Assembly (NCBI RefSeq): GCF_030684315.1
Contig: NC_081362.1
Location: forward strand, 89,049,022-89,113,021
Direction of reading: 5' to 3'
Origin: Stegostoma tigrinum
Taxonomy: Eukaryota
Length of the DNA: 64,000 nucleotides
Shown piece by piece: positions 7,712 through 64,000 of this stretch; within the stretch, counting starts at the first letter, position 1, and every line of letters begins with the position of its first letter. The notes beneath the pieces were generated by a model that was not told where the DNA came from, did not search any database, and saw only the letters and a list, made by a program, of their open reading frames with translations. The translations under genes were made by a program, and so were the position numbers.

Positions 7712-8706
7712 AGAACACAGAACATAGAACATTACAGCACAGTACAGGCCCATCGGCCCTCGACGTTGTGCCGACCCGTCGTACCGATCTCAAGCCCATT
7801 TAACCTACACTATTCCATGTACGTCCATATGCTTGTCCAATGATGACTTAAACGTACCTAAAGTTGGCGAATCTACTACCGTTGCAGGCAAAGCGTTCCA
7901 TTCCCTTACTACTCTGACTAAAGAAACTACCTCTGACATCTGTCCTATATCTTTCACCCCTCAATTTAAAGCTACGCCCCCTCGTGCTCGCCGTCACCAT
8001 CCTAGGAAAAAGGCTCTCCCTATCCACCCTATCTAACCCTCTGATTATTTTATATGTTTCAATTAAGTCATCTCTCAACCTTTTTCTCTCTAATGAAAAC
8101 AGCCTCAAGTCCCTCAGCCTTTCCTTGTAAGACCTTCCCTCCATACCAGGCAACATCCCAGTAAATCTCCTCTGCACCCTTTCCAAAGCTTCCACATCCT
8201 TCTTATAATGCGGTGATCAGAACTGTACACAATACGCCAAGTGCGGCTGCACCAGAGTTTTGTACAGCTTCACCATAAACTCTTGGTTCCGGAACTCGAT
8301 CCATCTATTAATAAAAGTGAAAACACTGTATGCCTTCTTAACAGCCCTGTCAACCTGGGTGGCAACTTTCAAGGATCTGTGTACACGGACACCGTGATCT
8401 CTCTCCTCATCTACACTAAGAATCTTACCATTAGCCCTGTACTTTGCCTTCTTGTTACTCCTACCAAAGTGCATCACCTCACACTTGTCTGCATTAAACT
8501 CCATTTGCCACCTCTCAGCCCAGCTCTGCAGCTTATCCACGTCTCTCTGCAACCTACAGCATCCTTCGTCACTATCCACAACTCCACCGACCTTAGTGTC
8601 GTCTGCAAATTTACTAACCCATCCTTCTACGCCCTCATCCAGGTCATTTATAAAAATGACAAACAGCAGTGGACCCAACACCGACCCTTGCGGTACACCA
8701 CTAGTA
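7712..8706 (-). mobile_element. Young 5'-truncated CR1-type LINE (RT C-terminus + 3' tail)
   Basis: VTSGVPQGSVLGPLLFVIFINDLDEG...SKFADDTKVGG...LERVQRRFT; short AGAAC/AT tail; ACTGTCAT duplicated at 7704-7711 and 8707-8714. Confidence 0.92.
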
Positions 8707-9802
8707 ACTGTCATGGGGAGAAACACATGCATTAACGACACAGGAGAACTAACGTACATAGAGATTAGAGCAGAATCTTAAATCAGTATATAGATCATTC
8801 TGGATAGAAGCAAAAGAGAAAATTACACATTCATAGGCAACTCATGGAAAAACTCTGAACATGCACAAATCAGATCAAAAACAAACTGCATTTATGCAAT
8901 GTCTTTAAAAAGTTCCAACGAAACATAATCAAACAAAACTGATGTTGAGTCAAAGAAAGTAATATCAGAAGAGTCTTCAACATCAGAGGGGGGAGAACGA
9001 AAGGCCATGGAGATTTCAACAAGAGAACAAAGCATTTTAAACGGAAACTTTTGCGGGACTTGGGGTCCAATGTACGTCAGTGACCACAGGGGTCAAACGA
9101 GGTGTGATTCATGTAAAATAGAACTGGCAGAATTTTAATGAGCTCAAGTCAGTGGTAGAAGATGGGAGGTTGAAAAGGAGAGCAATGAAACGAATGTGTG
9201 TGTGGATGTGGCTTTAGGCAACAGATGATTGGCAGGAAACGTCATTTATATTAGAAACTGACGTTGGACACCAAGACAAGAAATCGGACAAGCAAACGAA
9301 GTTTGTTGGAGACAGAATTAGGACAGGTAAGCTCAGGTGGAGGGTAATAGACCGAGTGTTTTTTTTTAAATCATTGCCCACTATCCCCATTATAATAGAA
9401 AATAACTGTGGCTTTATAAAGAGGGCAATGAACCATTAATAATATCATTATACATAACCTATAAAACACGCACACATCTACAACACTAAATCCACAGTGA
9501 CGCCAATGTTCGCACGTATAACTCCATATACAATATTGATTTCCGTATGCAAGTTTAGAATTCCACGGTGGTTCAAATCCAAATAGGCACGATAGGTATT
9601 TCTCATCATTGCAAAATAACCTGCAACAATTATTGGATCGAACTCATCAAATGCATCTCCATTTTCCATCATTATAGGTTTAACAGCCTGACCACATCCT
9701 GCATATCATCTAACTCTCAATATCTTCCTTCGCTCTGACATATGACCAAAATACCAAACGAGTCCCAGACACGCACAGTAATGACACGAGCACACAGTCT
9801 TG

Positions 9803-10089: not shown

Positions 10090-11350
<1,261 letters not shown>

Positions 11351-11351
11351 T

Positions 11352-11930
11352 GAGGAGGAGGGGATGGGGGTGAGGGGGCGGGGATGATGGTGAAGGGGTG
11401 GACCTAGGGTGAGGAGGCGGGGCTGGGGTTGAGGAGGTGGGGGTGGAAGTGAGGAGGAGGGAATGGGAGTGAGGGGGCGGGGATGATGGTGAAGGGGTGG
11501 ACCTAGGGTGAGGAGGCGGGGCTGGGGTTGAGGAGGTGCGGGTGGAAGTGAGGAGGAGGGGATGGGAGTGAGGGGGCGGGGATGATGGTGAAGGGGTGGA
11601 CCTAGGGTGAGGAGGAGGGGTTGGGAGTGAGGGGGCGGGGACGATGGTGAAGGGGTGGACCTAGGGTGAGGAGGAGGGGATGGGAGCGATGGGGCGGGGA
11701 TGATGGTGAAGGGGTGGACCTAGGGTGAGGAGGCGGGGCTGGGGTTGAGGAGGTGGGGGTGGAAGTGAGGAGGAGGGAATGGGAGTGACGGGTCGGGGAT
11801 GATGGTGAAGGGGTGGACCTAGGGTGAGGAGGCGGGGATGATGGTGAAGGGGTGGACCTAGGGTGAGGAGGCGGGGCTGGGGTTGAGGAGGTGGACCTCG
11901 GGTGAGGAGGAGGGGCTGGCGGTGAGGGGG
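11352..11930. repeat. G-rich compound minisatellite (about 99/59/39-bp variant units)
   Basis: Eight copies of GACCT(A/C)GGGTGAGGAGG at about 11401, 11500, 11599, 11658, 11717, 11816, 11855, 11894. Confidence 0.92.
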
Positions 11931-13519
11931 TGGGGCTCGGGGGTGAAGGAAGGCGGGACTGTGTGAGGAAGTGGATTCGATGAGAGGGCGGAGGTTTGGA
12001 ATGAAGGGTCGGGCCTGGGTTGGGGGTTGTGGGGTGGAGGTGTGACTGGGGAATGGGGGGGGGTTGTCCGAGGGTGAGGCTGAGATTGAGGCAGATGGGG
12101 CTGAGTGAACAGTGGATTTGATTTTTGTCAATACGGTTGTGTGTATTTGGAAGAGCTTTGAGATGTGGGAGGGCAGCTGGCAATGGGGAGGAACAAGGAA
12201 TGGTGTGGGACAGCTTCTTTTTCACTATCATATCTACCAGTTTTGCCTCAGCAACCTATTCAGAGATGTTACTTCTGGAGCAGATGATACTTGAACCCAG
12301 GACTCCCAGTCTAGGGGTAGGGACACTACTTCTGTGCAACAAGGGGGACCTTAAGACGCTCATGCCTACTATTTATTAATATTGTTAGCTCTATCTAATA
12401 TGCAAAGGCTTCTTAAATTGCCTCATCTATGAGTGCACACCCATCCCACCACCTGTTTTATGCAGCAGCACCATTTTTCCAGGCATTGGTACTGAGAATA
12501 CATCGCACAGACCCATCACAAGCATCTCAAATTACCTCAGAACCAATGAACTATTTCTAAAGTGTGCTCACTGTTCTAATTTAGGAAACACTAAACAGCA
12601 AAGGTGATAATCAAATACTCTGTTTAATGATGCTGACTGAGGGATAAATATGATCATCTTCAAAATAGTATCACAACATCTTTTGCATCACCTGAGAGGG
12701 CAACAGGATCTTGTTTTAACACCTCAGCTGAAAGACAGCACCACTGTCAGCCTAGAGTGAGACTTGAACCCACAGTGCATACACTCTGATGTAATCACTG
12801 ACAGGCCAGTTTTATGTTGGGTTAAGTTCAAAAGGAAAACTTCTTTTTACATATCCTGAATCAATCAACCGACAGCCTTTCTGTTGCATGCCCAAGTGTT
12901 TTGAAGCATGAAAGACAATTGTCTGGACATGTTTTATATGTCCAGGCTCTGGATTTTGCTTTTATTGCAAGTTGAGGATTCCCTTCACTGCATTTCACTA
13001 TGGTTATCAGGACAAATAGATATGCGAGTCTCCAGGTGAAAGCAATACCTTTTGAGATCTTGAACTATGGAAAGCCATCGTATTTAGGGGAGCACATCTC
13101 CCACTGGTAAACCTAATGAATTTCTTACAGTGTACTGAATCTATGATTGAATCTGCGAGCAATTTCACCAGCTAGGCAGTATCACCCATGCAAAGGAACA
13201 TCTCAATACCTTAAAAATGAGGGGAATTAAGATGCATGCCAGATAAAATCTTAGATGTAAGGTGGAGTCTGGAGAAGACCATAAGAAATAGGAGCAGGAT
13301 TTGGCCATTCAGCCCCTCTGCCTGTTCTGCCATTCAGTAGGATCATGGCTGATTCGGCAGGGGTTACATTCTGAAGAGCAGATAAGTTAAACATTGATTC
13401 AGAAGAGGTATTAAAAGTCATTAATTATTTCAATGGAATAAATAAAATGAAACAGTTTTTGATGACAAGTGTTGATTGAGGACATCAGTAAAAGGGACAA
13501 CATGCAGAAACATGTTTTA

Positions 13520-21450: not shown

Positions 21451-21865
21451 AAAAAAGCAAAAAAAGAAAAAGGAAACCTTTCCTCTAATGCACAATTCTA
21501 AAACAAGGTTAGCACAGCCTTAAAACTCGAGCTTGGCTGTTCAGAGTAACGTTAGAAAACTGTCCATGGCAAGTTAAAATCCAGAACTCTCCAAAAACTA
21601 TTAAGACTGGGCAGTCAATTGAAAATTGCAAAACCTAAGTTTGATAGATTTTTGATAGGTGAAATTATTAAGGGTTACATAAGCAAGATGAAGCTATAGA
21701 ACACCCATGATCTAAACAAATGGTACAACTGGCTTCAGGGACTAAAACGGCCCATTCCTATGACAGTGCATAGTATCCTCTGACAACCATTTATATCATG
21801 CTCCGGTCAGTGAGTCTGAAATTCACAAGCTACTAAAAATTAGTCACAAAAGGTCAAAGCCTCAC

Positions 21866-22042
21866 TCATAGCTTTTGTAGAAATTTGAGGACTAAGTCAC
21901 GGAGCTTGGTGCGAAGTGGTTCATTGTTGTCACAAATAATATGAGTGGAATCTTCTTCAATTTGGACGAGTGTATCTTCAGACTGAAGGTGGACAATATG
22001 TCCCTCCGGCGTGTCTTCAACTTTGACATCTGTGATGCCATG
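21866..22042 (-). CDS. INTS9: INTS9 exon 17 (last coding exon)
   Basis: [58 protein letters not shown] then TGA at 21868-21866. Confidence 0.96.
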
Positions 22043-25000
22043 CTGTGGGGAAATGAGGAGACACGTTACTGACAGTGGTGGTGTGCATCCAGTTGCTTCT
22101 CAACTAAAATGCTACTTAAAAACAACAAACAGATGTGAGGCACATTGATTTGGGAGTATCTCAAATAAGACATAATAAATTACGTCACTAGAATGAAAAT
22201 ATGGATTGAAAACCCTTCTGCTCATTAAGCTTCCTCCCTCCCTCAGGACCAAACCATTCACTGGAGTTCACAAGGTGAGAAAAATGATAAGAAAATGAAG
22301 ATTACTTCCAAAAAAAGCCGTGCTCACTGCAAAACCTATAAAACATCAAGCATTGGAACAAGAGAAGTGAGCTCGGAACGTGGCTCCTTTTGATGATCCG
22401 CCTCAGTCAGAGGGTGGTGAATCGGTGGAACTCATGGCCTCCACAGCCCTCTGTGGCAAAGTCATTGAGTTTAAGACAGAGATGGACAGGTTCTTGATTA
22501 GTAAGGGGAACAAGGGTTATAGGAAGAAGGCTGGAGAATGTAGCTGAGAAACACATTAGCCACTATCAAATGGAAGAACAGGCTCAATGGCCCAACTCTG
22601 TTCTGATATCCTATGGTCTAACTTTGGAGAAAGACAGACTGACCCCAATGTGTGCTCCCTCAATCACTCCCTAGACTAGAGAATTTGAGGTATTCGAGGG
22701 ACTTCACAGTATAAACACACATACACAGGTCAGATCAAAGAATCATTGACATTTGCAGTTATTTTTAAAATACTTAAAAGCTACTATGAAGACAGCTGGG
22801 AAAATTTATAAGCTGAAGAACTACTTGTAAATGGCACTAGACAGACTGATGGAGTATTGTTTCTGTCATGATGATCATCCAGACACACTGGGCCAAATTT
22901 CCTCGTTCTGCACAATAACAATGTCATAATTTTATGAAGCAAGGGGAAGTACGGTGTATTACCTCAAATGGGAGGAAAAGCTCAAACTCCTTTAGTCACA
23001 ATGATTCAATACGTCAACTGCAAAGTGTCAGGGTCACTATCACCATCAAACATTGACCTTAAAATCGTTCTCTTGGGTGTTTTCTGTGACTCTAAGAAGT
23101 TCAACAACACAAACTGAAATGTCCCAAAGTACTTACAATATGTACAAAATGTCCCAAAGCACTTAAAAGAAGCATGCATAACAGCCCAAAATAACCCAAA
23201 GCTGCATTAGCAACTATTAGTAAAGGTGATTAAAGAGCCTGGAGTAGGTGTTAAACCAGGATTCCCAAACTGTGGCTCCTGAGCCCAATCTTTTCTCTCG
23301 TAGTCACTTCCAAAGTCAATGCAGCCTCAAACTGGCAAGAAGAGGAAGCGGGCAAATGATGATACTCCTGAATTCAAACCTCCCAAACCGCTACTGTGTG
23401 GTTCGATCACCATTGAACAATTTGTACAGAGCCATCACAGTGGGGTCACGAGCTCCAAGACAGCAACAGCTGCTGCCAGCTCAAACTGATTGCTAAGAAG
23501 GCTCTTTAAGTTCTCAGTTACTTTATTCTTTCTTGGGATATGAGGCCAGCATTTGTTGTCCATCCCTGAATGGCTCGCTTGGACATTTCAGAGGACAGTT
23601 AAGACTCAACTGTATTGCTGTGGGCCTGGAGTCAGAGGTAAATCACACACTGGCTAAGGGTGGCAGATTTCCTTCCCCAAAGGATCATTGAATCTCTACA
23701 GTGTAAAACCTGGCCATCCGGCCCACCGAGTCCACATCGACCTTCCCAACAGCAGCCCAGCCAGACTCACCCCCTACTCTATCCCTGTAATCCTGCATCT
23801 CCATGGCTAATCCACCCCACTTGCACATCCCTGGACACTATGGCCAACCCACCTAACCTGCACATCTTTGGACAGTGGGAGGAAACTGGAGCACCCAGAA
23901 GAATCCCACATGGACAGTGGGAGAATGTGCAAACTCCACACAGACAGTCATCCAAGTGTGGAATTGAACCCTCAGTGCTAACCACTGAGCCACAATGTCG
24001 TGGATAATCAATATAGTTTTGTGGCACCATTTCTCAGACTGGCTTTCAATTCCAGGTCTTTAGTAATTGAATTCAAATTCTACCAGTTGTTGTGGTTGGA
24101 CTTGAGCTCATGTTCCCAGAGCAAAAGCCTTGGATAACTAGCCCAATGGCATTAGCCCACAAAAAGTTGTGGATTTTTTCTTTGTAGAATCTGGACTTTT
24201 CTTGAACTCCCTTACTGCCCAACTCATGCCCCCTCTATCTTAACAACTATGAAGCCTTTGCTTCCTACCCCTCGCTCAATGGCGAATTTTCAATCTGGCT
24301 TCACACAAGATTTAAAGTATTTAAAGTGGGATCGCACAAGGATAAAGTTTGGGAAGCACTACCTTAAGCAGGGATTTAAAGATAGAATGAAAAGATGGAA
24401 AGGCATAGGGCAGGAATTCTGGTGTTTAGGGCCTTGGTAGCTGAAGACATGGCTACTACTAATGAAGCAGAGGATCTGGGAAATCCCAGGATAGCAGAAT
24501 TGATACTTACCTTCTCTAGGCTCTGTACAAATTGTTCAATGGTGATCGAACCACACAGTAGCGGTTTGGGAGGTTTGAATTCAGGAGTATCATCATTTGC
24601 CCGCTTCCTCTTCTTGCCAGTTTGAGGCTGCATTGACTTTGGAAGTGACTACGAGAGAAAAGATTGGAATATCACAATGTATTTAGTAAAAATGTAACGG
24701 AGCAATTAAGACACACTCAGTACTTCATTCCACTGCTTTGAGGGATGGTGTGTAATGATAAATTTATTCACATCATACAATCCCCTGATCTAAGAAATCA
24801 GTCACAAAATTAAGCAGCTTCACTTCAGAACCAAAAACAAACTGCTGGAGAAACTCAGATAACAAGGCGTAGAGCTGGATGAACACAGCAGGCCAAGCAG
24901 CAGAAAAGCTGACATTTTGGGCCAAGACCCTTCTTCATTTTCTGAAGAAAGAGGGATGAAAATCTGCTATCCTTACCTGTGTTAGCCTATATATGACACC

Positions 25001-28000
25001 AGACTATCAGCAATGCCCTCGAGATGATTGGGGATGGGCAATAAATGCTGACCCAAATGGAGATGAAGAAATAAATGAAAATCTTGCATTTAACAAGGTT
25101 AGAAAGGTCCAAAGTACTTTAAAATCAATGACTTTCCTCTGAAGTGGTATTACTGCTGTAAAGTATAAAAACATTGAATGTGCTTGTGCACAGCACGCTC
25201 CCACCAACAGTAATGAGCTAAATGATCATGTTACTTCTTTCGATCATGCTGGCTGAAAGTAAACATTGACGAGAACATTTGATGAACACTGCTTTTTTGA
25301 AGTTATGCCATACTTTATGTTCATCTATAACTGTATCTTGTACTAGCGATGAAAAGTCTATGTGAGCACTAATGAACAGCAGTTAACCATGCCACAAGTT
25401 TCTGCTTGGGGTTGGGGGAGAAAGAGAGAAAAAGAGGGGTAAAGCTGATGACATCCTACCTGTGGTGCTTCCACACATCTCCCAACTAGCATCAATTATT
25501 TACGTAGGTTAAGTGAAATTGTGGAAAATAAATCCAATTCAAGTCTTTTGGGCTAGTGTAATTTTATGACTAACCTGCAGAATGTGCTTATTGTCTTTGG
25601 TCTGTAGTACTGCAGACACAGTTACCATGGAAATGCCAGGTTTTATCTCAGAAGGCACCAGGGACTCGGCGAGCTGTAAAACAATGATAGTACAAGAGGA
25701 ATTAAAATCAGGGACGGCAAGAAAAAAACTTGGATACATACGTCACCTTTCATAACTATTTGATATCTCTAGGTGCTGTATAGCCAACAATGTATGTTTA
25801 TTTTCTGAATGAAGCGTAGTCACTGCTGTATTAAAAATGCAGCAGGCAAGCTACGCACACAGCAAGTTGCCACAACCGCATTCTGATAATGACCAGGCCA
25901 ACTATTTTAGACACGCCGGTCAGAGATAAATATTGGCCAGGAAATTGGGAAAAATCCCCCTCTTCTTCAAAATTGTGTCATGGGATCTTTCATGCCCACC
26001 AGAAGAGGTAAATGGGACCAAGGTGAAGGACAGCATCTCTAACTGTGAAGCAGCATTTTCTTATTTTCTATAAGCGCAAACTTTGGACAAAAATACAGTG
26101 ACTACAAAACATTTCCCAATCTATGGTAAACCAGTGTATTGGGAAAGAAACATTTAACCCATCCTACCTGCAGTTTGCCACATGCTATTTAAATCTGCAG
26201 ACTGCAAGCAGTCTGACATGGCAAGAGGCTATCTTTTCTCTCCCACAACGCACTGGCCATGAATTAAGTTTTCTAATCTCAGTCGCTGTCTTCCAGCAAA
26301 CTTCTCAATTCACGGCTGATGTCAGCTTTCAATATAAGCTTGAAGGAGAGTCCAAGCTCATCCTCACAATGGTGTTAAGTTTAAGGCTTGAGAGGGAGGG
26401 AGGGCCAAGAGGGAGGAATGAAGGAGCAACAAAAGTAAAACAAACAGAGTGAATAAATATAACTGCACCAATAGATCAAAAACAGCCACTCACTTACATC
26501 AGGCATGAGCTCAATCTTCTCATAGCGCCGTTTGAAGGGGAGGGTCAGCACTTCAGCCCTCCGGTAGGCCATTGGTGGGGGCTGGCAGTCAATCATCAGA
26601 TCAGTGCGGTGCGATTGGGCAGGTGGAGGTTGAGTATATTGTTCTGGACACACAACATGCAATGGCTGGAAAACCAAAACAGGGAGTGTTGATGGGTAGG
26701 GGTGCAAAACACTAAATAACATTTTACTGATCAGTCCCACAGTCTGACATTCACTGACAGTGTGGGTTGGGTAGGATTAAAAAAAGAGGCCATTTCATCT
26801 CCCTTGGGACTGGTCGATCTTCACATTTCCTCAAGTTCTAATGAGGAAATGCCACTGCACGGAATTGTAAATCCTTTTCAAGGTACAATGATGCTAAGCG
26901 ACTCTGGCCTCATCATACATGGTTGCAGAAAATTTACGTGTATTTGTAATAACGCACTTTACTGATTATGGTATTGTTACACTAGCAAAGGGATTGAGTG
27001 CTATAGATCAGCCAGAGGCAAGCTGGAAACAAAACAAAGGGAAGTAAAACTCCCCAAGATCATTTGAGAAACAGATGGATTAGCAGAGATTGGCTTACTC
27101 TGTTCGCACCTATTTTGCAAAGTGAAAACAACTCTATATTTGACAATTCATCAGCCAACATTCACGCAAACAGAATGTGCAGTATCTTTGGCCTGATATG
27201 CTGCATCACATGATTTATAAAACGTTAAGATAATACATATATTGGCAAAAAAATTATTTTAGACTTTATTTGGCAAGAGTAGCATTTGTTGCCCATCTAT
27301 CATTGCTCTCAAAATGAGTCACTTACATCCCATTCCAGAAGACAGTCAACCAAATTCCTGCGAGCCAGGAATCATGTCAACCAGGCTCGGTAAGGATGTC
27401 AAATTTCTTTCTTCAAAAGGGTTCACTAATGTCACTTAAGGAAGGAAATCTGCCATCCTTACCCAGTCTGGCCTACATGTGACTCCAGACCAAGTGCAAT
27501 GTGGTTGACTCTCAACTGTCCTCTTGGGCAATTAGAAATGGGGAATAAACACGGGCCTGGCCAACAACATCCATGTTCTGTGAATGAATTAAGAAGAAAT
27601 TCATGAACCAGATGGGGTTTTTATGATAATCGACAATGGTTTCACCGTCACTATTGAGACTGGCTTTACATTCCATATTTAATAACTGGGTTTAAATTCC
27701 ACCAGCTGCTGTAATGGGATTTGTTCCCATGTCCCCAGAATTTTAGCCTGGGCCTCTTGATTGCTAGCCCAGTGACATTACCTATATGCCACCATCTCCA
27801 TCACTGATTGAAGTTTTCTGCTTTCTCCTGACTAAAATGACAAAAGAATGACACCAATCAACATACCTGAACCTCCTTCAATAATTTTGAAACTTGAATG
27901 AAGTTTAATCGAGTATCAATTGGACAGTAAACACATTTCATAGCCAGTGGCTGGTATGGTGCCAAAGCGTCGAGATAGGAGAAATCCGGTTCTGGAAGGA

Positions 28001-62660: not shown

Positions 62661-63212
62661 AAGAAGTTGTCTTTTCTGTTGCAGATGATGTCTTTAAATG
62701 AAATAAATACTTGAGTACAACTTTCTTGGCTAGCATTCTGAATAATAATTGCTAGGATTTAAATGCAGGGAAAAGCTTGCATTATGCCCGTATGGATACT
62801 GCAAAGCACCAGTTTAGCATTTTGACTTTCAGAACTTGTCATGTTAAGACTGTGTTGTAACAATTCAGCGGTGACAGGGCTGTCATTCAGTGGAAGAAAT
62901 TTGAAGTAATGAATTAATTCATAAACAATGTGCACAACTATGGCAACACACACATACTTGGGAGCCAATTTTTATTTACTTATTTAGGTTTCCCCTTTTC
63001 ATTGTATGTCAAAACTGTGTCTCGATAAGCTCAACGATAGCTCCAGGGCATTGATGATATTTTGGTTGTGAGAATTAATTGAACCATTTCATAATGGCAT
63101 TAAAAGAAAGGTGGGATAACGGTTACCAAACAGGAGGTAATTGACTTTGATTTGTCTGTTCCTCATTGAGGGTTTAATGCCTTTTTCCTATGCCCCATTT
63201 AGCAGTAACACA

Positions 63213-63676
63213 ATGTCACACTACACAGATGAGCCCAGGTTTACAATTGAACAGATTGACTTGCTGCAGCGACTTCGGAGGAGCGGGATGGCAAAACGTG
63301 ACATAATCCACGCGCTGGAGACCTTGGACCGACTTGACCAAGAGCACTCTGAGAAATTTGGCAAACGGCACACCTACAACAACAGTTCCCACAGCAACAG
63401 CAACAACGTCTCTGCTTCATCCTCGACAGTCACAGCCGCGACACAGACACAGCACAGTGGCGCGTCGCCATCTCCGAGTAACAGCTATGACACCTCACCA
63501 CCACCGTGCAGCACTCATCTGAATGGGCGGGAGAGCTACAGCAACGAGAAACCGCCAGTGGCCAATGGCAGGCTGTCACCTAACCGTTTCCACACAACCA
63601 GTAGCCAGAGGACAGGAAATTTCCATGCCATGGAAGAAGAGACAGACCTGGAAGAAAGGGTTGAAGAGCTTATGAG
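63213..63676 (+). CDS. HMBOX1: Homeobox-containing protein 1 (HMBOX1), first large coding exon; gene continues beyond the window
   Basis: MSHYTDEPRFTIEQIDLLQRLRRSGM...LETLDRLDQEHSEKFG...SPSPSNSYDTSPPPC...VEELMR; TAGCAG acceptor at 63200-63205, donor GT at 63677; head-to-head with INTS9 as in human. Confidence 0.93.
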
Positions 63677-64000
63677 GTTGGTTGAAATGACTATTCAGTT
63701 ATTTTTACTGTTGAGGTTTAAGTCGCCAAAGGCAGCTTTCCATCTTTTGTAGGATAATGACTTGTGTCATGTTAGCCAACTCTGTTGAGCAGTGCCTGGT
63801 GTAGTTGAGGAGCCCCATTAATATATTCAAAACTAGGAAGGTAACCAGCATTTTTGTTTTAAATCTTACAGCAGTAGATTTTAGTGGCTGATGATAAGGG
63901 GATGTGGAACTTAGATACAGAGCCACCATGATTTAATCCAATGGCAGAACAAGCTTGAAGGGGCTGAGCAGCTTCTTCCTGTTTCTGTGTCGCACCGTTA

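What the first reader, a model, noticed from the sequence alone, without database searches (positions are those of the whole stretch)
23285..24667. Perfect inverted copy of INTS9 exon 16 and its 3' splice site in the next intron: possible RNA-duplex splicing or editing switch
Seen: 23285-23433 is the exact reverse complement of 24519-24667 (149 bp, 1085-nt spacer). It covers the last 19 nt of intron 15 (pyrimidine tract + AG) and 130 of the 138 exon nt, but not the donor. Exon 16 is phase 0-0 and encodes GKKRKR, which resembles a monopartite NLS. Established: long intramolecular pre-mRNA duplexes can mask splice sites and are ADAR substrates. Inference: the hairpin could cause in-frame skipping (a 46-aa deletion removing the basic cluster), A-to-I recoding of the lysine codons, or hairpin small RNAs against INTS9. 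It is not a TE-derived inverted repeat. Perfect identity points to a very recent event, gene conversion, or an assembly artefact.
Basis: partly seen in the sequence, partly recalled or inferred. Interest (0 to 1): 0.82.

Follow-up and report, generated by a model that had tools for sequence, protein, structure and literature searches.

The report
Backwards exon copy in shark INTS9
In one shark lineage, a likely DNA-copying slip pasted a perfect backwards copy of exon 16 of the essential gene INTS9 into the next intron, where it is predicted to pair with the exon in the RNA and likely causes some transcripts to skip it, as similar accidents do in human disease.

Summary
The repeat is real. 23285-23433 is the exact reverse complement of 24519-24667. 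Both junctions are in short-read contigs of two samples, and two related organisms have an empty site. The event is a 151-nt insertion (145 nt copied from exon 16 and its acceptor, plus 6 nt of filler) with a 4-nt microhomology, the signature of a template switch. At least three more local inverted copies lie in the surrounding 864 kb, so the DNA event is ordinary. The RNA side is more interesting. The RefSeq set that matches this gene has an isoform lacking exactly exon 16; none of 21 other named cartilaginous fish has one listed, but some birds and a turtle do. Human CHM and MANBA disease alleles skip exons next to an inverted copy. Skipping removes KKRKR and the first helix of the INTS11-binding domain, so it is likely a leak to a crippled protein, not an NLS switch. 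No RNA of this species could be examined, so cause, editing and small RNAs are untested. Perfect identity does not mean very recent on a shark clock. This scan noted similar inverted exon copies in three other genomes (unchecked).

The parts
23285..23433 (+). inverted copy: exact reverse complement of 24519-24667; antisense to exon 16 in the INTS9 pre-mRNA
   Evidence: both junctions in short-read contigs
23289..23439 (.). the inserted DNA, 151 nt (boundary can slide by 1 nt): 145 nt from the donor segment plus 6 nt filler
   Evidence: empty site in organisms C (23287 joined to 23439) and B (23288, one letter, 23441)
23285..23288 (-). 4-nt microhomology (TTGG on the minus strand) shared by target site and donor end
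23434..23439 (-). 6-nt filler TGTGAT; the same 6-mer lies at 24671-24676, 3 nt beyond the donor boundary (possibly templated, could be chance)
24519..24667 (-). donor segment: pyrimidine tract, AG and 130 nt of exon 16
24511..24648 (-). INTS9 exon 16, residues 555-600: end of CTD1, linker, first 19 residues of CTD2
24601..24615 (-). codons for KKRKR (residues 566-570), conserved basic cluster; NLS function not shown
   Evidence: KKRKR in 112 of 117 proteins that hold the exon
24680..24690 (-). branch-point-like ACTAA about 36 nt upstream of the exon, outside the duplex
   Evidence: consensus recalled
25575..25673 (-). INTS9 exon 15 (99 nt, phase 0-0)
21869..22042 (-). INTS9 exon 17 coding part (IntS9_C profile positions 15-71)
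23256..23530 (-). old interspersed repeat that hosts the insertion; another genomic copy (L040) aligns to both flanks with about the empty-site spacing; the hAT-like look of its end is recalled, not tested

Best explanation
A 151-nt insertion found in this shark lineage and absent from two relatives, likely made by a microhomology-mediated template switch, placed an exact antisense copy of the exon-16 acceptor and exon 1.1 kb downstream, where it is predicted to form a 149-bp RNA duplex that likely makes a fraction of INTS9 transcripts skip exon 16. Shown: the repeat, its junctions in reads, the empty ancestral site, the microhomology, and an annotated 15-to-17 isoform in the matching species. 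Inferred: polymerase slippage as origin; the duplex forming in time; the duplex as cause of the skip. The copy is transcribed about 1,350 nt after the acceptor, so exon definition likely wins the race in most transcripts and full-length protein is still made. The skipped product lacks the CTD1-CTD2 linker and the first CTD2 helix and likely binds INTS11 poorly, so the effect is most likely a tolerated leak, not an evolved switch. About 0.9 for the origin, about 0.65 for a measurable skipping effect.
For: Junctions in reads and empty sites. 4-nt microhomology and 6-nt filler, like the inverted, microhomology-flanked insertions in PMC8421209 and the CHM allele with 8- and 4-bp microhomology and 4 added nt. 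Duplex energy -299 kcal/mol at 37 C, 149 of 149 pairs in the MFE; pyrimidine tract and AG go from mean P(unpaired) 0.34 to 0.00 when the copy is present, donor and branch region stay as open as before. P0131 (XP_048392612.1, Stegostoma tigrinum isoform X3) lacks exactly residues 555-600; the window matches that species' full-length protein at 655 of 655 residues found, and those proteins were called on a contig of the same length as C11. 1 of 40 cartilaginous-fish proteins that reach the C terminus (22 named species) has this join. Human precedents: CHM exon 12 and MANBA exons 8-10. Domain limits CTD1 507-556 and CTD2 582-658, CTD2 needed for dimerisation.
Against: The isoform is a computed annotation; its read support and abundance were not seen. 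The same species also has an annotated skip of exon 8 (P0001), which has no such copy, so its annotation may simply be rich in skip forms. The same exon-16 skip is annotated in birds and a turtle (P0040, P0083, P0142, P0185: 4 of 135 other vertebrate proteins with both flanking motifs); their introns were not checked. The human alleles are much longer (1.75 and 13 kb) and cover both splice sites. A strongly skipping allele of an essential gene would be selected against, yet no empty allele was seen in the two samples, which argues for a weak effect. Equilibrium folding says nothing about co-transcriptional timing.
Confidence: 0.6

Rival explanations
1. Neutral scar. The insertion arose the same way but exon 16 is committed before the copy is transcribed; the annotated skip isoform is the background skipping also seen in birds and turtles.
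For: Similar local inverted copies are common: 4 low-copy pairs of 117-292 nt at 88-100% identity in 864 kb, 4.6 per Mb (95% interval 1.3-11.9). Exon-16 skip annotated in amniotes. A second, unrelated skip isoform in the same species. Strong donor GTAAGT left free.
Against: Among 22 named cartilaginous fish the skip is listed only in the species that matches the insertion carrier. Exon 16 accounts for 4 of the 39 other proteins that lack one of the five most often lost in-frame exons, so a chance hit is possible but not the likeliest outcome. Human precedents show such copies do act.
Confidence: 0.27
2. Selected regulatory switch. The duplex, tuned by elongation rate, temperature or ADAR, sets the dose of full-length INTS9 or makes an isoform without the basic cluster.
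For: Zero differences between the arms (about 4-5 expected if as old as the split from organism B, P0 0.007-0.018); no empty allele seen in two samples; in-frame skip; conserved KKRKR.
Against: Zero differences fit an ordinary age in the later part of the branch. Absent from both relatives. The skip cuts into CTD2, which points to loss of function. No tissue or condition data.
Confidence: 0.06
3. The main effect is ADAR hyper-editing or hairpin small RNA, not steric masking: A-to-I changes in the duplex recode exon 16 or destroy the acceptor AG.
For: A perfect 149-bp duplex with 42 A in the exonic part; long perfect duplexes are ADAR and Dicer substrates (established knowledge, recalled).
Against: No RNA evidence. 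A transcript in which the duplex has formed before splicing is more likely to skip the exon than to carry it edited into mRNA (inference). No Rfam match in 21800-25800.
Confidence: 0.05
4. Assembly artefact, or an old duplication kept identical by gene conversion.
For: 100% identity between the arms.
Against: Both junctions are in short-read contigs of 2 of 2 runs laid from this organism, with doubled depth on the arm; both relatives have a clean empty site and a single, uncollapsed exon contig in organism B.
Confidence: 0.02

Closest known systems
Human CHM exon-12 inverted duplication (PMC8756506; passages read)
   Same: Inverted copy of an exon inserted in the next intron (693 nt downstream), junction microhomology plus a few added nt, FoSTeS/MMBIR proposed, hairpin proposed, exon skipped in mRNA.
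   Different: 1,752 bp and both splice sites covered; out-of-frame, disease-causing and private to a family. Here 149 bp, acceptor and exon only, in frame, no empty allele seen, full-length form still annotated.
Human MANBA intragenic inverted duplication (PMC6549551; passages read)
   Same: Microhomology-flanked inverted duplication; skipping attributed to a pre-mRNA hairpin.
   Different: 13.1 kb, Alu-mediated, several exons, no wild-type transcript found in the patient.
MMBIR-type templated insertions, MMB-TI (PMC8421209; passages read)
   Same: Short inverted copy of a nearby template with junction microhomology; found as germline variants (about 100 per person at 25 bp or more).
   Different: That study's search only took templates within 100 bp; here the template is 1.1 kb away, and one junction has filler instead of clean microhomology.
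Inverted Alu loop-out skipping (PMC13019027; abstract and outline read)
   Same: Lineage-specific inverted repeat creating a pre-mRNA stem linked to exon skipping.
   Different: There both arms are intronic transposons that loop the exon out; here one arm is the exon and its acceptor, masked directly, and is not a transposon.
ADAR editing-site complementary sequences (e.g. GRIA2 Q/R; recalled, no call)
   Same: Intronic sequence downstream that pairs with an exon.
   Different: Those are imperfect, conserved across species and site-selective; this is perfect, lineage-specific, and no editing has been shown.

Membership tests
Microhomology-mediated templated insertion (MMBIR/FoSTeS type) | Insertion absent from the ancestral allele | tested here: met
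   Empty site in organisms B and C, and in repeat copy L040
Microhomology-mediated templated insertion (MMBIR/FoSTeS type) | Inverted copy of a nearby template | tested here: met
Microhomology-mediated templated insertion (MMBIR/FoSTeS type) | Microhomology at the junctions | tested here: met
   4 nt at one junction; 6-nt filler at the other, whose origin is unresolved
Microhomology-mediated templated insertion (MMBIR/FoSTeS type) | Made by a replication restart and not by polymerase-theta end joining | not testable with these tools
   The two pathways leave overlapping scars
Inverted exon duplication with hairpin skipping (CHM/MANBA type) | Antisense copy of the exon in the same pre-mRNA, able to pair with it | tested here: met
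   149 of 149 pairs in the fold
Inverted exon duplication with hairpin skipping (CHM/MANBA type) | Transcripts that skip the covered exon | tested here: inconclusive
   Annotated isoform X3 only; no reads or abundance seen
Inverted exon duplication with hairpin skipping (CHM/MANBA type) | Skipping depends on the copy | not testable with these tools
   Needs a minigene or comparative RNA-seq
Transposon-derived inverted repeat (IRAlu type) | Arms are copies of a dispersed repeat | tested here: not met
   Arm found twice in the genome search; only the landing site is an old repeat
ADAR editing-site complementary sequence | Conserved across related species | tested here: not met
   Absent in organisms B and C
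ADAR editing-site complementary sequence | A-to-I editing in the paired exon | not testable with these tools
   No RNA run of this organism could be laid
Hairpin-RNA / endo-siRNA locus | 21-24 nt reads from both arms | not testable with these tools
   No small-RNA data; no Rfam match
Monopartite NLS in INTS9 | Basic cluster needed for nuclear import | not tested
   KKRKR conserved, absent from the Drosophila chain; searches listed no paper on an INTS9 NLS; PMC9757034 describes an INTS11 NLS

The most novel reading that the evidence does not exclude
A single template-switch event gave a wild vertebrate a built-in antisense element against an exon of an essential gene, creating a new, species-specific alternative exon that now tunes Integrator dose through elongation rate or ADAR; thousands of local inverted copies per shark genome would make this a general, transposon-free route to new splice isoforms.
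Probability: 0.1. Interest if true: 0.8.

Novelty: new member of a known kind. Interest (0 to 1): 0.47.

Why it matters
The mechanism is known from rare human disease alleles, where causality could not be tested with minigenes because the introns are too long (PMC8756506). This case is compact (exon 15 to 17 spans 3.8 kb), has close relatives with the empty allele as natural controls, and masks only the acceptor and exon. It makes an old question directly testable: how well does a perfect duplex with a 1.1-kb loop compete with co-transcriptional exon definition? If the skip is due to the copy, it also shows that templated insertions can create alternative exons in essential genes and persist.

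Tried and rejected
No RNA holder of this organism was listed; this says nothing on expression. Reads were laid on 21800-23800 only, so exon 15, exon 16 itself and a 15-to-17 junction could not be seen directly. The idea that TTAAAGAGCCT inverted ends (23230-23240, 23499-23509) mark a young TTAA-type transposon carrying the copy was dropped: each flank found only itself in the genome search, and the repeat homology on the right ends near 23256. A converging plus-strand gene that could use the copied acceptor was not found: the downstream neighbour is a minus-strand SH3-kinase gene (25 long ORFs scanned). AlphaFold models were of low confidence (mean pLDDT 42 and 41); they place a helix at 591-600 and give the C-terminal domain pLDDT 54-76 in the full-length model and 31-44 in the skip model, a hint only. 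Rfam: no match. No complex prediction was run, since a missing score cannot show loss of binding. Two structural papers sought by DOI were not held, so their statements on CTD2 and nuclear import were not read; no supplements were read.

Full report
Observation. 23285-23433 is the exact reverse complement of 24519-24667 (149 of 149 nt, spacer 1085) and does not extend on either side. It is the only 100% inverted pair among the 25 longest of 70 in the window. A genome search found this arm at two places only. The gene is INTS9 on the minus strand: exon 17 matches Pfam IntS9_C and the human chains 5v8w and 7bfp. Exon 16 is 24511-24648, 46 codons, phase 0-0, residues 555-600 of a 658-aa protein.

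It is real. Short-read contigs of runs X1 and X4 (organism A, two samples of one study) each give three unitigs with no differences from the window: 22491-23314, 23285-23433 and 23404-23797. The flanking ones reach 30 nt into the repeat, and the 149-nt one has about double depth, as expected for a collapsed two-copy sequence. The flanking unitigs do not break at the insertion point, so no empty allele was seen. Contigs drop rare variants, and the two samples may not be independent of each other or of the assembled animal, so fixation is not shown.

It is a lineage-specific insertion. In organism C one contig joins 23287 directly to 23439; in organism B one joins 23288 to 23441 through one letter, and its exon-16 contig is single-copy with 2 differences in 149 nt. 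The insert is therefore 151 nt: 6 nt of filler and 145 nt of donor, joined to the target by a 4-nt microhomology. The filler 6-mer recurs 3 nt beyond the donor boundary; it may be a second short template switch, but I put the chance of such a match at several percent. The landing site is an old dispersed repeat: a 20-nt flank pattern has 40 matches against 2 for the control, and 2 of 29 other loci (L038, L040) align to both flanks above all 100 shuffles and in the right order, L040 with nearly the empty-site spacing; a third (L030) only just passed, on the wrong strand. This anatomy fits the microhomology-flanked inverted insertions described in PMC8421209 (passages).

The DNA event is ordinary. 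In 864 kb around the window, 4 low-copy local inverted pairs of 117-292 nt and 88-100% identity were found, this one included. Two of the other three were searched genome-wide, and their next-best matches elsewhere are partial and weaker. That is 4.6 per Mb (1.3-11.9), or roughly 4,000-38,000 per genome if the region is typical. Some will hit exons by chance. Whether the other three are insertions was not tested against relatives.

Age. Organism B differs from the window at 82 of 1,520 aligned, mostly intronic positions. A copy as old as that split would carry about 4-5 changes (P of none 0.007-0.018). With a flat prior the median age is 14-17% of the branch and the 95% bound 57-67%. At 7e-10 per base per generation, measured in the epaulette shark (PMC10587355, passages), the mean wait for one change in 149 nt is near ten million generations (my arithmetic). 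Perfect identity therefore does not mean very recent and needs no gene conversion.

RNA. The arms pair fully in the minimum-energy fold; the duplex is -299 kcal/mol at 37 C and -347 at 25 C. With the copy present, the pyrimidine tract, AG and exon body are fully paired, while the donor and the branch-like site about 36 nt upstream stay as open as before. The complement of the acceptor is made 1,346 nt after the acceptor, so the spliceosome has a head start (inference).

Evidence for skipping. The window's exons match the Stegostoma tigrinum full-length protein P0121 at 655 of 655 residues found; Rhincodon differs at 1, Hemiscyllium at 4. The Stegostoma proteins were called on a contig of the same length as C11. 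Isoform X3 (P0131, XP_048392612.1, 612 aa) lacks exactly residues 555-600. It is the only one with that join among 40 cartilaginous-fish proteins that reach the C terminus, from 22 named species and 3 unnamed entries; one N-terminal fragment was dropped. In organism C, which lacks the copy, an mRNA contig runs unbroken from exon 16 into exon 17, a weak hint of inclusion there. Against: these are computed annotations whose read support I could not see; isoforms X1 and X2 keep exon 16; X2 skips exon 8, which has no copy; and 4 of 135 other vertebrate proteins (birds, a turtle) have the same 15-to-17 join (large clusters were read only in part, 40 of 791 in one). I judge the coincidence several times likelier if the copy acts than if it does not, not proof.

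Consequence. Human INTS9 CTD1 is 507-556 and CTD2 582-658, and CTD2 is required for INTS9-INTS11 dimerisation (PMC7980224, passages; numbering is colinear with the shark protein). Exon 16 thus encodes the linker with KKRKR and the first 19 residues of CTD2, including a predicted helix at 591-600 (low-confidence model). KKRKR is in 112 of 117 proteins that hold the exon, but five searches listed no paper on an INTS9 NLS; the one read describes an INTS11 NLS (PMC9757034, passages). The skipped product is more likely crippled than relocated.

Comparison and novelty. It works like the CHM and MANBA alleles (PMC8756506, PMC6549551; passages): inverted exon copy, microhomology, proposed hairpin, skipped exon. 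It differs in size, in leaving the donor free, in staying in frame and in being tolerated. It is not a transposon-derived repeat and fails the conservation test for an editing-guide sequence. A search for Stegostoma, INTS9, inverted duplication and exon skipping (25 of 38 listed) showed no paper with the species name among those listed; subscription journals are not covered. Three unchecked notes of this scan describe similar inverted copies near exons in other genomes.

Verdict. Real, lineage-specific templated insertion; likely partial, hairpin-driven skipping of exon 16 (about 0.6 overall); selected switch about 0.06. New member of a known kind; interest 0.47, carried by the matching isoform and by how easy the case is to test.

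Noticed in passing
G000:C11:89273612-89273728 / 89275199-89275315; 89323608-89323893 / 89324445-89324735; 89047383-89047539 / 89047792-89047954: Three more low-copy local inverted duplicates (117 nt 98%, 292 nt 91%, 164 nt 88%; spacers 1470, 551, 252), probably older events of the same kind.
   Followed up: partly
G000:C11:88868448-88868946 / 88869565-88870063: Exact 499-nt inverted pair of a young high-copy repeat, 618 nt apart; several similar pairs of 200-324 nt nearby.
   Followed up: no
G000:C11:88950564-88950753: Perfect 92-bp palindrome with a 6-nt spacer made of a high-copy repeat.
   Followed up: no
G000:C11:89451863-89452359: Long near-perfect inverted pair with an exact 86-nt core, 325 nt apart, in otherwise unique flanks; may be a small foldback element.
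   Followed up: partly
window 10302-11177 (-): First coding exon of an SH3 plus kinase gene (MLK-like; label recalled) downstream of INTS9 on the same strand, with GC-rich tandem repeats at 11350-12025.
   Followed up: no
window 63141-63749 (+): HNF-1_N domain ORF, probably HMBOX1 (label recalled), head to head with INTS9.
   Followed up: no
window 23590-23676 / 27440-27524: 87-nt, 78% inverted repeat pair that brackets exons 14-16; a much weaker possible loop-out.
   Followed up: no
proteins P0040, P0083, P0142, P0185, P0093; P0048-P0059: In-frame skips of INTS9 exon 16, exon 15, or both are annotated in birds, a turtle and a donkey.
   Followed up: partly
window 23117-23146: 30 nt present in the window and missing in both organisms B and C, a second lineage-specific indel in intron 16.
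   Followed up: no
window 8220-8777 (-): Reverse-transcriptase fragment (Pfam RVT_1).
   Followed up: no
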